Origin: Octopus vulgaris
Lineage: Eukaryota
Length of the DNA: 64,000 nucleotides
Assembly: GCA_951406725.2 (NCBI GenBank)
Contig: OX597815.1
Location: forward strand, 118,792,001-118,856,000
Direction: 5' to 3'
Part shown: positions 1 through 54,000 of the stretch, piece by piece
Numbering within the stretch: the first letter of the stretch is position 1
Layout: the number at the start of each line of letters is the position of its first letter
Position numbers: made by a program

Positions 1-3000
1 ACAATGAATTATTTTGCAAGGGACGCAGTACTTTAAGAATTAGAGCGTATTACAATCTGATACGCCATCTCATAGACTTTCTTTTCTGAAGTAGTTGACA
101 AAGTAGTTTGCTGCAATTTCCTTTGATATCTGGGATAAGTAAATTTAGTTAGTTTCAATTTCTAATAAACAAGATTCATTGAAATACATTACGAATAATT
201 TCAGTACGAACATTCGTACAAGATTTTGTTATATCTTGGGAAGGTCATTTCGCCAGACTCTCCCAAGACAAATATTTATTTTATCATACGAGAATGTGAA
301 ATGACAGTTGCTTTTGATGGGACATAACAGAGGAGGTGCATGAGGACTGCCACCACTACTCTTATAGGAATAGGGGGCGGAGAAGTTAGATGGATGGATA
401 TATTAAAAAGAATATCAATATTTGCTAAACTTAGTCTTGTATTTTAGACCTGAAATTTATACAGGGACATTGAAGAGCGATGTTGCTTACAACGAAGTTG
501 ATGCTTGTTTACTCCCCCCACCACAATCCTTGTGTGAATCAGATTCAAGGAGATAATTTAGACCAGTGGTTCTCAACTGGGGTACATATGGTCTGAGAGT
601 CCATATAAGATTTTTGGGGGTCCACGCAACAAAATAGTAAACTGGGGAACCACAATAGTATTTTAAGGGCCCCTGAAAAAATATTGCTCTAGATACATGC
701 ATCGGCATGTATTACCAGAAACAGCTAGGTTTCTTTCTAATATTTTACATAATTCAACCTATAAAAGCGAATAAGTGAATAGCAATTTTGAAAATTTCTC
801 TAAAGCTATAAAGCGAATGGATATGGGGTACTACTTGAATAAAGTCGCAATCAAAGGGATCCATAGATAACGGTTGAAACTTCAGACTTAGACCTTTAAC
901 TTCTTTATCACAATATTCACGATACTGTAACTGCTTAATTTTGAATCACTTAAAAATTCGTTTTCAAAACTAAAGGAAATTACTTTTATCAAATACATAT
1001 ACTTCTAAATAAACGGGGATTTTGCTAATTTCACTAACATTAAAAAAAAAAAAAAAAAAACTTTCTAAGTATAGTAGCATAGCAATAACATTTCAAATCT
1101 ACGATGAGACACGTGTAAACTGTATTCCACGCAGATTGGTGATATTTTTGTGTAAAAAGACACGCCATAAACTACATTGGAGAAATCGCTAGGGCATTTT
1201 AGAGAATAAAACTGGTCGACTCATATTTGCATTCTTTTTTCCGATTTCCACAACTGAAACCTCGCCCATTATCATTTTCATATAGATTCCACCCTGAATA
1301 AAGATAATCTGGTATAATTTTATGCTAGATTGAATTTTTGAGCGTAAGTTTAACGCTTGGAGATTAGTTAACTTAGAATATATTTTATACTAACAATAGT
1401 GAATATCTATTGGTAAGCATGCTGAAGTGGGGCCAAAACTATCATATTACTCGAGATTACTTTCTCTGGAAGGTTTTAGAACAGGAAGAGGAGTTTTATA
1501 AAAAAGAGTATTCTATTAGAAAAAAATGAAACTTTTCAAATTTAGTATAACATGTCAAACTTAGACATGTTATAAATTTGTATTCATTAAACCCACAGTG
1601 AAATCATTCGAGATCTTATCGCCAAATAAAATACTCGATCACTCCCCATAATGAAACTAATGATAAACGTATTTAATTGAAAATATTTCAACAACTTAAA
1701 AATAGGATAGTCAAATAATTCAAAGTTTTCAGAAAAAAACTTTATAACTTGCCTGTTATTGGAACTAAGTAGAAAGCATTTCCTCTAAAAGAAATATTTA
1801 ATCAGGAGGAGAGTACATCTAGATATATTACACAATTTGATTTGTATAAACACTGCTGTAGAATAGTTGCATATTTCCGAAAAGCGACGTTTGTGATGCA
1901 ATTTCGATTTCCAGTTGATCCATTGGATTTATTTGTTTCTCGTGTTTTCCTTTAAACCACATAGTTCACTCGCAACATATCATAAACATGGTACAAGCAG
2001 AACAAAAGACTCATTTAGCTTGGAGAACTCTTTATATGTAACAGAACCGCTCAACAATATGTTAACAATCGTTATAATTTTCGAAAACTGAACAGCCAAA
2101 TCAGTGAGGCTTTATAAACAATGGTATGGTTATAAGAATTCGATAATTTGATTAGGATTACAATATGTTGTACTCTGAAAATAATTGTTTTAGTAAATTA
2201 GAATTTAAAATAGTCATTGGTTTTATATAGCTCCAACACGAATATAGCTTGCGAGAGAACAGGCGAATATACCACCAACCAACTGTAAAAATCCAAATAT
2301 ATTACAAGTAGTCCCAAAATAAATTTGACGTTTATGCATCCAAGAAAGTATCTTTTTCGAACAACCATGTTCATAAATAGAGCTCTGATTTTTGGAGTAA
2401 TTTCCGCAGCCTTCCGTTGGGTGAATGCAGCAAGAATCTGGAACAGTACCATTACCCAAGACATTGTACCATTCACTTGGTTTGTGAACTCCACAACAAG
2501 CGAATCTTTTCTGAATACTATCCCATTCGTTTGCAACTGTTGCGTTGAAGAGATATTGGTGTTCGGTCTTAACCATCCTCGCGCTCACTGAATGACTTGC
2601 TATTTTTCGTAGCGAAAATGTTGCAGTGGAACTGCCAATTTCCACAGTTGTTATAAGGACGATAAAGACAGTGAAGGTTGCGATGTATTCATAGCTTTTC
2701 TTCAGGGCTCCAACAAGACCAAATAGTGACATAAGCATCAGAAGAAAGCCTAAAGATATAAACAAAATAGTACACAACTTCATATAGTTTCCTAACAAAC
2801 AAGGATATGTTTGGGTGTAATAGAATCCACCGAGTCCTATTAAAATAATAGAAGCGACAAGAAAGAGAATATTTAACAAAATTAAAGTCACCCTCGTACA
2901 AAAAGGACTACATTCCATGCTTACTTCCACAAGGATAAAAAAAGATTACAATTCATTGGTTGGTAAATAAATAAGCACAGTGTTGTTCATATGCAAATTC

Positions 3001-51000: not shown

Positions 51001-54000
51001 TTATTTTAAATTTGAAAGGAATGAAAATTTGCTCCTGAATGCTAGTTTGGGTTATTTTCATGTATATCACTTGTGTCTCTGCATCGCTTTAAAATCCTTT
51101 TTTAGTGAATCACAGGTAGACTTATACTGAGTTTTTTTTTGTTTTTTTTTTTAAGGATTCAAAATTGGTATTTTTGACGTTTTAAAGTAAAGGTAACATT
51201 AATTTTAAGTACTTGAAACTTTAAACAGCAATTATTGTGGAATACGAACTAACGACACACAATTTACAAATTTGGAGCCTTTATGCTCTTAGCCATTTTG
51301 TCTCTTCAGCAAATAATAAACAGCGAATTGCCATTTTATAGTACTAATCGTTTCGAGTCTTTGCTGGCTCGAACCAAGCATCAAGAACTGTAGAATGATA
51401 ATTTAAATCATCGATGAATTTATCAAAAGTTATTGAAAAACCATATCTCATTTACATAACAACAGAAAATATTACTACCAATATGTTTAAAAGAGTTTTT
51501 TAAAAAAATCACAGTTTATAGAAATCAAAAAAAAAACTAGGCGCCATGTCGATGGGATCGTGTTCAGCGAAATATTTATTAATTCTATTGAACGCATTCT
51601 TTCTAGTGATTTCGTTGGTGCTAATTGCAGTTGGATCTCTCATGCAAGTATCCTTCCATGAGTATGCACAAGTTTTCCGTGATAGCGTAAGTGTACCAGC
51701 TGTACTAATAATTTCCCTCGGCCTCTTAATATGTATGACTTCGATTTTTGGCCTAGTGATCGTTGTAAAAGAAAGATACATTTTATTATCAGTATATTCT
51801 TGCGTTCTTGTCATTCTTATTATTGCTGAAATTTTAATTGGACTCGTTGGTCTTACCCTAAAGTCTTATGTACGCCAAATTGTGGTGCATACTATGCAAG
51901 TGGCGGAGAGGAAATATAACGAGAGCATTTCTGCGGCTTACACTTGGAATACTATACAGAACAACTTGCACTGCTGCGGTATTTTGAACTACACTGAGTG
52001 GTTGCCTTATTTGAACAATTCTGTACCAAATTCCTGTTGCATCTCTTATAAATATAACTGTGGTACTAATGCTGTTGAGGCCAACAACGTTCATGCGACA
52101 GGCTGTGATAAAGCTTTGTTTCACTGGCTCTACGAACACCAAATTGTCATCGGCGCCCTTTGTGCTGCTTTTGTCTTGCTAAAGATTTTGACGCTTATGT
52201 TAGCGCGTTGTTACGACAGATATCTCGTGGAATTTACAAATCAACCCAGTCTGAATCCTTTCAAAAGTTCAATATGGCAGTAGCAACAAACCGTAACTAC
52301 TAAAAATGTCTCTAAAGAAACTAAATTTTCAACAAAATTGTAACTATAAGTTATTGGATTGTCAGTTTCGGTTTATTTGCTAAAGAAAAAAATGTAAGCA
52401 CGGAAATTTTGTTCGAGTCTATTATATCGTTCACAAAATCGTTTTTTTTTTTTTTTTGTTTCCCAATGCTTTCAGAAAAACTTCACTTCGCTATAGACTC
52501 TATTTGTGGTTCCCAATTTTATGCCATAGAAATAATACGGATTCAGTGAAAACTTTAATTGCCCAAATTTGTTATACTTTTTTTCCAAAAGTGTCACGAC
52601 TCGATGTTTTTGAAAGCAAATTTCAATCTTCAATGACTTGTGAAAGGAACTTTTGATTATATTATCTGAAGTGCACACGACCTCCCTGGAGTTGCTTTAC
52701 ACCGAGTTTTCTTCGCGTTCTAACAATCTAATTTCAGGCGAACAAAAGCTTTTTTTACATAAATAAATGGTTATTTCTGGAATGCTTCTAACTTCATGTC
52801 ACTTGTCTTATCTTAACAAGATTATTTCCAATGTAATTCTGAATTATTGCATGTTATCTTACACCAACCTCTAAATTTCAACTTGGTTAGGTAGCTCTCT
52901 TCTGACCTTAGCATGTTAAGTAACCAATTGAGTCGGCAATGTAATGAATTTCTAATTTTATCAGCCAAATCTTGATTTTCAGGATTTTGTTTAGTGAGTG
53001 CTAATATGATACGCAAAGACTACATCTCAAATGGTCCTCCTCTTCAGAACAAACTTTCTGACTACATCTCCCCATCTTCGAGACTGCTACAATAAAGTAT
53101 TGCTACCAAATCTAGAACGGTACTGCTGCTACACAACTTGGACAGCGTCCAGAGAAAGTTGCTTAAATTTGCATGACACTAACGCTTCAGTCCTTGGTTT
53201 ACATGTACTGTCGCCTTCCCGCTTTTTCTATTACAATACTATCTGCATTTTGGAGCTGGCTCATTTCCATTCCTCTTTCCATCACCTATGTACTTTCCAC
53301 TTCCATCACCTATGTTGAGTCCAATACTCCAGGCCATGTAGCAACCACAACATTTAGTTAATCTCAGAATGTCTGTTTTCAGGAACTCTCTCCATACATG
53401 TTTCTCGCCGTCGTTGGTTTGCAGCGATTTCGGTGAAAAATTAGCAACCTTGAAGGACCCGCGGAAAAGCTTCAGCATAGTCTCTGCTTCCAGGTCGCAC
53501 ACATTCAGTAAAAAGCTCGCTAATATACAAATCCTGATTCGACAAAGAGTTATATTTTGTTAAAATATCAACTGTATAGAAATACATTGAAATTAAACAG
53601 TGTTAAAGGACAGATTTTTCCTGATACGTAGCAAATAAAGGTATTAGCGGGTATAACATTCCTTAATTTTTGTAATCTAGAATTACACATTCATTAAATA
53701 GGTGCTAAAACCCTCTCAAGTCAAACAGTACTGCATATTTTCAATGCAGGCCTACCATCCAGTATTCGGACGTATTTCCATTATTGTACTTGAAACTTTA
53801 TTTTATGTATTATAAAATGCAAACCGTAGCCTTGGTCAAATCCTGTCTACCGTAATAAAAACATAGGCTAGACATTTCTGTCCACCTTTTTTTTCTTTTT
53901 TTTTTTTTTTTTGTATCACTGCATTTTTTACTCCTTTAAGTACAGGCAAATATCGTGTGACAGCAATTTCCTGACTCGTATTTGCACAGATATTGATATG

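What the first reader, a model, noticed from the sequence alone, without database searches (positions are those of the whole stretch)
2223..52283. Dispersed array of four intact, intronless, highly diverged tetraspanin paralogues
Seen: the only intact genes in 64 kb are four tetraspanins, each one uninterrupted ORF (231-245 aa), about 22, 14 and 11 kb apart, with paralogue 1 divergent from 2-4. Known: animal tetraspanins such as CD63, CD9 and CD81 normally have several conserved coding introns; clustered expansions exist (e.g. Drosophila Tsp42E). Inference: a CD63-like retrocopy seeded a lineage-specific tandem expansion that stayed under purifying selection while surrounding repeats decayed. 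It could be a combinatorial cell-surface repertoire (neuronal identity, immunity or gamete recognition), analogous in layout to clustered single-exon gene families. The array may extend beyond the window.
Basis: partly seen in the sequence, partly recalled or inferred. Interest (0 to 1): 0.8.

Follow-up and report, generated by a model that had tools for sequence, protein, structure and literature searches.

The report
Four single-exon tetraspanin genes in octopus
This stretch of an octopus-like genome holds four old, intact, neighbouring genes for tetraspanin membrane-organiser proteins, each coded without introns, which is a tidy gene-family observation and not a new kind of system.

Summary
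Four uninterrupted ORFs of 231, 240, 243 and 245 aa sit at the stated coordinates. All four are full-length Pfam tetraspanins. They lie 22, 14 and 11 kb apart, the first on the opposite strand, and the window holds no further copies or fragments.

The window is octopod. Same-length orthologues occur in Octopus bimaculoides (about 90-92% identity) and Argonauta hians.

In a careful tree, all four fall in one strongly supported clade (100/99). That clade excludes all 12 named vertebrate, arthropod and nematode tetraspanins sampled, including CD63. It also holds 22 unnamed database proteins, and T4 sits among them. An AU test did not reject the four forming an exclusive clade (p = 0.23).

The T2/T3 duplication predates the Octopus-Argonauta split. 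The Octopus-level orthologues show no indels. This points to old, conserved genes, not a fast-diversifying repertoire.

A retrocopy origin is plausible but untested. Intronless tetraspanins (TSPAN10) and tandem clusters (Drosophila Tsp42E) are already known.

Verdict: real, ordinary-to-moderately interesting, a new member of a known kind.

The parts
2223..2918 (-). T1: single-ORF tetraspanin gene, 231 aa, six-Cys large extracellular loop, four N-glycosylation sequons in the loop
   Evidence: ORF. (PF00335, E = 9.2e-38, profile 2-223/225). (hydrophobic segments, Cys positions, sequons). Orthologues: P0010 at 93% and 231 aa (unnamed record), and P0012 from Argonauta hians at 78% and 186 aa, an N-truncated model.
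24912..25634 (+). T2: single-ORF tetraspanin gene, 240 aa
   Evidence: (PF00335, E = 1.5e-24). Orthologues: P0009 from O. bimaculoides ('tetraspanin-9') at 90% and 240 aa, P0011 at 79% and 240 aa (unnamed record), and P0013 from Argonauta hians at 46% and 239 aa.
39883..40614 (+). T3: single-ORF tetraspanin gene, 243 aa, nearest paralogue of T2
   Evidence: (PF00335, E = 4.2e-16). Orthologue P0008 from O. bimaculoides ('CD63 antigen') at 90% and 243 aa. AlphaFold2 model with pLDDT 89.9 and pTM 0.78. All 10 of 10 PDB fold matches with E <= 0.001 are tetraspanins.
51546..52283 (+). T4: single-ORF tetraspanin gene, 245 aa, with a longer C-terminal tail
   Evidence: (PF00335, E = 1.5e-38). Orthologues: P0001 from O. 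bimaculoides ('CD63 antigen') at 92% and 245 aa, and P0002 at 87% and 245 aa (unnamed record). The PDB sequence search returned 5 of 5 tetraspanins, best Tetraspanin-7 at 2e-20.

Best explanation
The window holds a small, old tandem cluster of four functional tetraspanin genes from an octopod genome.

What the proteins are. Each gene encodes, in one coding exon, a complete four-helix membrane protein. The large extracellular loop carries the CCG, PxSCC and two further cysteines of the six-cysteine (CD63-like) class.

How they most likely work. By inference from the family, they act as tetraspanins do elsewhere. They scaffold membrane microdomains and bind partner proteins laterally through the variable part of the large loop. 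The four paralogues would have different partners and/or different tissues.

Inferred history. A single ancestor had already lost its coding introns, most simply by retroposition of a processed mRNA. DNA-level tandem duplications followed, before octopods diversified. Each copy was then kept by purifying selection.

Shown: the identity, completeness, fold, clustering, shared clade, age relative to the Octopus-Argonauta split, and conservation of the reading frames.

Inferred: the retroposition step, expression, and the molecular partners.
For: Identity. PF00335 matches in 4 of 4 over the whole profile. C141, C142, G143, P160, S162, C163, C164, C171 and C186 (T1 numbering) are invariant across the four genes and their 8 orthologues. 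Each has four hydrophobic segments. The T3 model has pLDDT 89.9, and its large loop superposes on the CD63 loop at 1.7 A with 28-31% identity.

Single coding exon. Each whole domain lies in one ORF bounded by an upstream in-frame stop. The three O. bimaculoides RefSeq proteins have exactly the same lengths (245, 243, 240) and are collinear.

One family. In the careful IQ-TREE of 88 rows, a 34-row clade at 100/99 contains T1-T4. All 12 named non-octopod proteins lie outside it. Two quick trees gave the same result at 99.

Age. The Argonauta protein P0013 groups with T2, not T3 (98/91). In O. bimaculoides the three named orthologues share one 192.49-Mb contig. In Argonauta the two share one 14.46-Mb contig.

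Constraint. There are 0 gap columns in 6 of 6 Octopus-level orthologue comparisons, with 17-51 substitutions each. T2 and its Argonauta orthologue differ at 130 of 237 sites with only 5 gap columns, and both frames are open. Yet 4.3-5.0% of all single-base changes in these genes would create a stop.
Against: No RNA data were available, so transcription and UTR introns are unknown.

No orthologue DNA was available, so dN/dS was not computed. The constraint is argued only from open frames, absent indels and conserved motifs.

Retroposition has no direct support. 0 of 4 genes show a credible old poly(A) remnant. No parent gene was sought or found.

The four genes may not be each other's closest relatives. 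T4 groups with 22 unnamed proteins at 99/96. If so, the local array is not a closed expansion, and some copies may have relatives elsewhere in the genome or in other taxa.

No extended flank homology between the copies supports DNA-level duplication. Only short dispersed repeats of at most 463 bp are shared. This is expected at 22-33% protein identity, so it is uninformative and not contrary.
Confidence: 0.6

Rival explanations
1. The genes and their function are as above, but the intronless state did not arise by retroposition. The ancestor lost its introns stepwise or by recombination with cDNA, or it belongs to an intron-poor tetraspanin subfamily that is widespread in molluscs or lophotrochozoans.
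For: No retrocopy hallmark is present. The clade holds 22 further 50%-identity representatives of unknown taxon, so the subfamily may be broad and old. Lophotrochozoans are reported to have tetraspanin expansions larger than those of vertebrates (PMC5620054, passages).
Against: In the one phylogenomic survey I read in passages (PMC2650405), intron loss was rare in tetraspanins: 4 losses against 105 gains. Complete loss was noted only for TSPAN10. That survey had no molluscs. Losing every coding intron at once is most simply explained by a processed mRNA.
Confidence: 0.3
2. One reading: the array is a combinatorial cell-surface identity repertoire (neuronal, immune or gamete recognition), comparable to clustered single-exon families.
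For: The genes are clustered, single-exon, surface-exposed and strongly diverged in the loop region. A tetraspanin is a strong pan-neuronal marker in squid (PMC9839350, passages), but nothing links that gene to this clade.
Against: There are only four genes in 64 kb and no fragments of others. Orthologues of unchanged or near-unchanged length were recovered for each gene. The duplications are older than the Octopus-Argonauta split. Orthologue substitutions are spread over all regions and are not concentrated in the variable loop: for example T4 vs O. bimaculoides has 4 of 45 in the variable loop against 19 of 245 overall. Each unit has its own stop, so no shared constant exons are implied.
Confidence: 0.07
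3. The ORFs are unexpressed relics or annotation-only genes that have stayed open by chance or recent origin.
For: T1 had no named O. bimaculoides counterpart in the word-limited searches.
Against: 7.7e-4 ORFs of this length are expected by chance. All motif residues are conserved in 12 of 12 sequences. Frames stay open in up to four sources per gene, including Argonauta at 46% identity.
Confidence: 0.03

Closest known systems
Drosophila Tsp42E cluster (18 tandem tetraspanin genes, some called CD63 homologues)
   Same: It is a tandem array of diverged tetraspanin paralogues on one chromosome segment. Members have the CD63-like loop and partly distinct functions (PMC9441712, passages).
   Different: This array has four genes, not 18, and spacers of 11-22 kb filled with repeats. 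All coding sequences are uninterrupted. No Drosophila protein was in my trees. The two named arthropod CD63-like proteins sampled, from Anopheles and Parasteatoda, fall outside the octopod clade, so the two arrays look like independent expansions.
Vertebrate CD63 and the 'CD63L' intron-defined group
   Same: It has the six-cysteine large loop (CCG, PxSCC, two more Cys). The best loop superposition is on the CD63 LEL, at rmsd 1.7 A and 28-31% identity. Vertebrate CD63 proteins are the best named hits of the sister-group profile, with E from 1e-39. RefSeq names two orthologues 'CD63 antigen'.
   Different: It is not orthologous. The vertebrate CD63 clade lies on the other side of a 100/99 branch. 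It has none of the ancestral coding introns 1-6 that define the CD63L group (PMC2650405, passages). The C-terminal Yxx-hydrophobic sorting motif (recalled from memory for CD63) is visible only in T3 (YNKL) and perhaps T1 (YIRV).
TSPAN10 (oculospanin), the vertebrate tetraspanin without introns
   Same: It is a tetraspanin whose coding sequence has no introns (PMC2650405, passages). This shows that intronless tetraspanins are not unprecedented.
   Different: TSPAN10 is a single gene, not a cluster. Its loop matched the T3 model only weakly (E = 0.025, TM 0.59 on the target). No sequence relationship was tested beyond that.

Membership tests
Tetraspanin superfamily (PF00335) | Pfam model match above the curated cut-off over the full domain | tested here: met
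   4 of 4 matched, at 59.7-133.1 bits against a cut-off of 32.1, covering profile 2 to 218-223 of 225.
Tetraspanin superfamily (PF00335) | Four transmembrane helices with a small and a large extracellular loop | tested here: met
   Hydropathy shows four hydrophobic segments in each protein, with TM2 and TM3 merged by the window in T3 and T4. The T3 model shows long helices at 6-46, 56-84, 87-113 and 197-242 with a helical loop domain between them. All 10 of 10 PDB fold hits with E <= 0.001 are tetraspanins. Only T3 was modelled.
Tetraspanin superfamily (PF00335) | CCG motif plus further conserved cysteines in the large loop | tested here: met
   C141, C142, G143, P160, S162, C163, C164, C171 and C186 (T1 numbering) are invariant in 12 of 12 aligned sequences. 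The motif names are recalled from general knowledge of the family.
CD63 orthologue / CD63L intron group | Conserved ancestral coding introns 1-6 (Garcia-Espana et al. 2009) | tested here: not met
   Each coding sequence is one uninterrupted ORF. The definition comes from PMC2650405 passages.
CD63 orthologue / CD63L intron group | Groups with vertebrate CD63 in a tree | tested here: not met
   The named vertebrate CD63 proteins sampled (Anabas, Sorex, Tamandua) and the unnamed-family Aldrovandia tetraspanin form their own clade. That clade lies on the 54-row side of the 100/99 split.
CD63 orthologue / CD63L intron group | Six-cysteine large-loop pattern | tested here: met
   Each of the four large loops has six Cys.
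Processed retrogene | Lacks the introns of an identifiable parent gene | not testable with these tools
   The coding sequences have no introns. No eukaryotic genome collection was available in which to look for a parent.
Processed retrogene | Poly(A) remnant and target-site duplications at the insertion | tested here: inconclusive
   An A19 run lies 144 nt after the T2 stop. None of the other 3 genes has an A-run of 8 or more within the first 1.1 kb. Target-site duplications were not searched for. The age of the copies makes absence uninformative.
Tandem paralogue cluster (Tsp42E-like layout) | Adjacent paralogues with no unrelated host gene between them | tested here: met
   Only reverse-transcriptase ORFs were found between and beside the genes. 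Short-exon genes would be missed.
Tandem paralogue cluster (Tsp42E-like layout) | Cluster members are each other's closest relatives | tested here: inconclusive
   The free tree places T4 with 22 unnamed proteins at 99/96. The AU test on a 42-row subset does not reject the 12 octopod rows forming one clade: lnL difference 10.65, p = 0.231.

The most novel reading that the evidence does not exclude
The 34-row clade is a cephalopod- or mollusc-specific tetraspanin subfamily. It would have been founded by one retrogene and have since multiplied to dozens of single-exon members in several arrays. This window would be one conserved core of it, and the family would be a lineage-specific expansion of membrane organisers alongside the other gene-family expansions in octopus.
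Probability: 0.15. Interest if true: 0.5.

Novelty: new member of a known kind. Interest (0 to 1): 0.3.

Why it matters
It adds a clean case to the small list of tetraspanins that have lost all coding introns. It also adds a second animal lineage with a tandem array of CD63-like tetraspanins.

It shows that the automatic names 'CD63 antigen' and 'tetraspanin-9' on the octopus orthologues do not reflect orthology.

If the wider clade proves to be cephalopod-specific and intronless throughout, it would be a useful system for studying how a retrogene founds a gene family. As it stands, this is a sound annotation-level result and not a surprise.

Tried and rejected
- The AU test on the full 88-row set did not finish in three runs. 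I replaced it with a 42-row subset.
- I tried to name the 22 clade relatives. A profile search with 18 of them returned only unnamed ENA or Logan records for the close hits, and vertebrate CD63 for the named ones. Their taxa remain unknown and I did not try to trace them.
- The Atlas search with T4 gave only generic chordate tetraspanin clusters and no lead.
- Double-domain library proteins (P0015, P0016, P0025, P0036, P0055) were split and placed. They lie outside the clade, so they say nothing about this array.
- Self-comparison for flank homology between the gene copies found only short dispersed repeats.
- Rfam and tRNA scans found nothing.
- Literature searches found no paper in the listings on an intronless or clustered cephalopod or mollusc tetraspanin family. 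The term sets were 'intronless'+'tetraspanin', 'tetraspanin'+'octopus', 'tetraspanin'+'cephalopod'+'expansion', 'tetraspanin'+'genome-wide identification'+'mollus', and 'tetraspanin'+'single-exon'. I saw listings and abstract openings only, plus passages of the five papers cited.
- The genome-contig collection holds bacteria and archaea only, so I did not use it. Supplements were closed. Those of PMC2650405 may hold intron tables that bear on the rarity claim.
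Full report
**Observation**

Under the standard code with ATG starts, the window has 8 ORFs of at least 150 aa. Four are the reported ones:
- T1, 2223-2918 (-), 231 aa
- T2, 24912-25634 (+), 240 aa
- T3, 39883-40614 (+), 243 aa
- T4, 51546-52283 (+), 245 aa

All four match Pfam PF00335 (Tetraspanin) in one stretch covering profile positions 2 to 218-223 of 225. 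The scores are 130.6, 87.3, 59.7 and 133.1 bits against a cut-off of 32.1.

The stop-to-stop frames begin only 8-15 codons before each ATG. The gaps between genes are 21,993, 14,248 and 10,931 bp. The window has no N.

From base composition, 7.7e-4 open frames of at least 231 codons are expected in the six frames.

tblastn with the four proteins finds the four loci at E <= 1e-15 and nothing else better than E = 0.063. That hit lies within T1's own locus. So there are no decayed extra copies in the 64 kb.

**What else is in the window**

I scanned 150 further stop-to-stop ORFs of at least 72 aa. These were 150 of the 168 ORFs of at least 70 aa that do not overlap the four genes. 4 of 150 hit reverse transcriptase (RVT_1) and none hit another family at E <= 0.001.

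A second batch covered 150 ORFs of 54-72 aa. Of 419 non-tetraspanin ORFs of at least 50 aa, 269 remained after the first batch. 224 of those passed a low-complexity filter, and the longest 150 were scanned. The batch gave 1 of 150 weak DUF5316 hit at E = 4.7e-4, which is chance level.

Of the 10 long ORFs scanned at E <= 1, 2 are RT fragments, 1 has a meaningless hit at E = 0.17, and 7 have nothing.

Rfam at gathering thresholds gave 0 matches and ARAGORN gave 0 tRNAs.

Genes with short exons would not be seen this way.

**Organism and orthologues**

The word-index searches returned named proteins of Octopus bimaculoides. They are P0001 ('CD63 antigen', 245 aa, 92% to T4), P0008 ('CD63 antigen', 243 aa, 90% to T3) and P0009 ('tetraspanin-9', 240 aa, 90% to T2). 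All three lie on one 192.49-Mb contig.

They also returned two proteins of Argonauta hians. P0012 is 'CD63 antigen-like', 186 aa, 78% to T1, and starts at T1's Met46. P0013 is 'tetraspanin-9-like', 239 aa, 46% to T2. Both lie on one 14.46-Mb contig.

Unnamed records were returned too: P0002 (87% to T4), P0010 (93% to T1) and P0011 (79% to T2).

One search gave 7 hits at E <= 0.001 among 2371 candidates. One search gave 7 among 5721.

The window is thus from an octopod near, but not identical to, O. bimaculoides.

The RefSeq proteins are collinear with the window ORFs and have the same lengths. That fits single coding exons in that species too.

No named O. bimaculoides counterpart of T1 appeared, but these searches are word-limited.

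**Protein anatomy**

Across the four genes and their eight orthologues, these residues are invariant (T1 numbering): G57, M115, W132, Q136, C141, C142, G143, E149, W150, P160, S162, C163, C164, C171, G185, C186 and Q198. This gives the CCG and PxSCC motifs and six loop cysteines. The motif names are from general knowledge of the family.

Hydropathy shows the four hydrophobic segments. The loops carry 1-4 N-glycosylation sequons.

An AlphaFold2 model of T3, the weakest Pfam scorer, was built on a 34-row alignment. It has mean pLDDT 89.9 and pTM 0.78.

In Foldseek against the PDB, all 10 of 10 matches with E <= 0.001 are tetraspanins: PRPH2/ROM1, Tspan15, CD53, uroplakin, CD81, CD9 and the CD63 loop. 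The loop fits the CD63 LEL best, at rmsd 1.7 A and 28-31% identity.

A sequence search of the PDB with T4 gave 5 of 5 tetraspanins, best Tetraspanin-7 at 2e-20.

**Relationships**

BLASTP identities among the four are:

| Pair | Identity |
|---|---|
| T2-T3 | 33.5% |
| T1-T4 | 30.5% |
| T1-T3 | 28.3% |
| T3-T4 | 28.0% |
| T2-T4 | 24.1% |
| T1-T2 | 22.3% |

A profile of the 12 octopod sequences was run against 1.84 billion representatives. It found 6245 proteins at E <= 0.001 and 99 at E <= 1e-30.

I built trees from:
- the four genes and their eight orthologues;
- the single-domain representatives among ranks P0015-P0074;
- four further unnamed relatives;
- the split domains of six multi-domain representatives;
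- 12 named proteins.

The 12 named proteins were three named vertebrate CD63 proteins (Anabas, Sorex, Tamandua), one unnamed-family tetraspanin of the fish Aldrovandia, two CD151-like, Tsp1-like, Tsp8-like, Tsp9, a Steinernema tetraspanin, and Anopheles and Parasteatoda CD63-like.

The careful IQ-TREE had 88 rows and 240 columns under LG+C20+F+G4. It gives:
- A 34-row clade at 100/99 (ultrafast bootstrap / SH-aLRT) on a branch of 0.4. It contains T1 with its orthologues, T2/T3 with theirs (100/100), and a 25-row set (99/96) holding T4 with 22 unnamed representatives.
- The nearest of those to T4 are P0018, P0164 and P0022 (95/87).
- All 12 named proteins lie on the other side.

Two quick trees agreed, with 99 for the clade.

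An AU test on a 42-row subset did not reject the 12 octopod rows forming one exclusive clade (lnL difference 10.65, p-AU 0.231). The same test on 88 rows did not finish.

So the four genes share a subfamily that is distinct from vertebrate CD63. Whether they are each other's closest relatives is open.

The taxa of the 22 relatives are unknown. A profile search with 18 of them gave 36 hits at E <= 1e-10 among 8000 scored. The close hits were only unnamed ENA or Logan records. The best named hits were fish and mammal CD63.

**Age and constraint**

The Argonauta protein P0013 groups with T2 to the exclusion of T3 (98/91). The T2/T3 duplication, and by implication the deeper ones, therefore predates the Octopus-Argonauta split. 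That split is tens of millions of years old or more. This figure is recalled and not from a call.

In 6 of 6 Octopus-level orthologue comparisons there are no gap columns, with 17-51 substitutions spread over all regions. T2 and its Argonauta orthologue differ at 130 of 237 aligned sites with 5 gap columns, and both frames are open.

Since 4.3-5.0% of possible single-base changes in these genes create stops, frames open at that divergence imply purifying selection.

I could not compute dN/dS because no orthologue DNA was obtainable. I had no expression data.

**Origin**

The coding sequences lack all introns.

The tetraspanin intron survey I read in passages (PMC2650405) makes three relevant points:
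- It places introns 1-6 in the animal ancestor.
- It found 105 gains against 4 losses.
- It names TSPAN10 as the one tetraspanin with no introns. It sampled no molluscs.

One retroposition followed by tandem DNA duplication is the simplest route, but nothing here demonstrates it.

Downstream of the stops, only T2 has an A-run. It is A19 at 25779-25797, 144 nt after the stop. A pure run cannot be a relic of an event that old.

Self-comparison of the window finds only short dispersed repeats of at most 463 bp near the genes. There is no extended flank homology. This is as expected for copies that are 22-33% identical.

Candidate splice acceptors sit just upstream of the T1 and T3 start codons in the sequence shown. 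I read these by eye only, so 5'-UTR introns are possible.

**Function**

By family membership the proteins should act as lateral organisers of membrane protein complexes.

T3 ends in YNKL. In the O. bimaculoides orthologue this is YDKL. It resembles the tyrosine-based sorting signal at the CD63 C-terminus, which I recall from memory. This hints at endolysosomal traffic for that paralogue. T1 has YIRV near its end. T2 and T4 in the window have no such motif. This is a lead, not a result.

The set is small and old, orthologues of each gene are conserved, and each unit has its own stop codon.

Octopus proteomic papers report unspecified tetraspanins in skin mucus and ink (PMC11431876, passages). 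A squid paper reports a pan-neuronal 'tetraspanin-8' (PMC9839350, passages). Neither can be tied to these genes.

**Comparison and novelty**

The layout resembles the Drosophila Tsp42E array of 18 genes (PMC9441712, passages). The gene structure resembles TSPAN10.

Lophotrochozoan tetraspanin expansions have been noted in general terms (PMC5620054, passages).

Five literature searches listed no paper on an intronless or clustered cephalopod tetraspanin family. I saw listings and abstract openings only.

Three of the four genes already exist as automatic RefSeq models in O. bimaculoides.

I rate this a new member of a known kind, with interest 0.3.

**Left unchecked**

- The metagenome and viral collections, which were closed.
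- Paper supplements, which were closed.
- Any eukaryotic genome DNA beyond the window.

Noticed in passing
window 55421-56916 (-), and 14824-15858 (+): These are non-LTR-type reverse-transcriptase remnants. A 312-aa ORF (RVT_1, E = 2e-31) abuts a 185-aa ORF in another frame. A second RT is split over two frames, at E = 3e-9 and 2e-7. A fourth RVT_1-positive ORF among the 150 scanned was not located.
   Followed up: partly
window 36695-36799: An interstitial telomere-like array lies between T2 and T3. Its unit is CTAACCCTAAAACC, with about 7.4 copies at 80% matches.
   Followed up: no
window 25779-25797: A pure A19 run lies 144 nt after the T2 stop codon, with no AATAAA just before it. It is more likely a mononucleotide microsatellite or a transposon tail than a retrocopy relic.
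   Followed up: partly
window 7630-7867, 50276-50508, 58010-58247; also 3286-3430, 3772-3976, 24080-24292: A dispersed repeat family of about 150-250 bp (SINE-like by size, 78-89% identity between copies) has copies within 1-1.5 kb of T1, T2 and T4. A separate pair, 23174-23840 and 43011-43443, is 85-94% identical.
   Followed up: no
P0012 (Argonauta hians) against window 2223-2918: The Argonauta model of the T1 orthologue starts at the residue matching T1 Met46, so it lacks the first helix. This is probably an annotation truncation. No named O. bimaculoides T1 orthologue was returned.
   Followed up: no
library proteins P0015, P0016, P0025, P0036, P0055: These predicted proteins of 468-609 aa carry two full tetraspanin domains in tandem. 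They are probably merged models of neighbouring genes. They group with a spider CD63-like protein, outside the octopod clade.
   Followed up: partly
window 20810-21283 (-) and 13637-14113 (+): Two further ORFs of 157-158 aa have no Pfam family. The first is cysteine-rich near its C-terminal end. The second is a translation of low-complexity CT/CA-rich DNA.
   Followed up: no
T1-T4 alignment, first and third helices: T1 and T4 keep an Asn in helix 1 and a Glu in helix 3. T2 and T3 have Ser and Gln at the same columns. This paired change marks the T2/T3 lineage.
   Followed up: no
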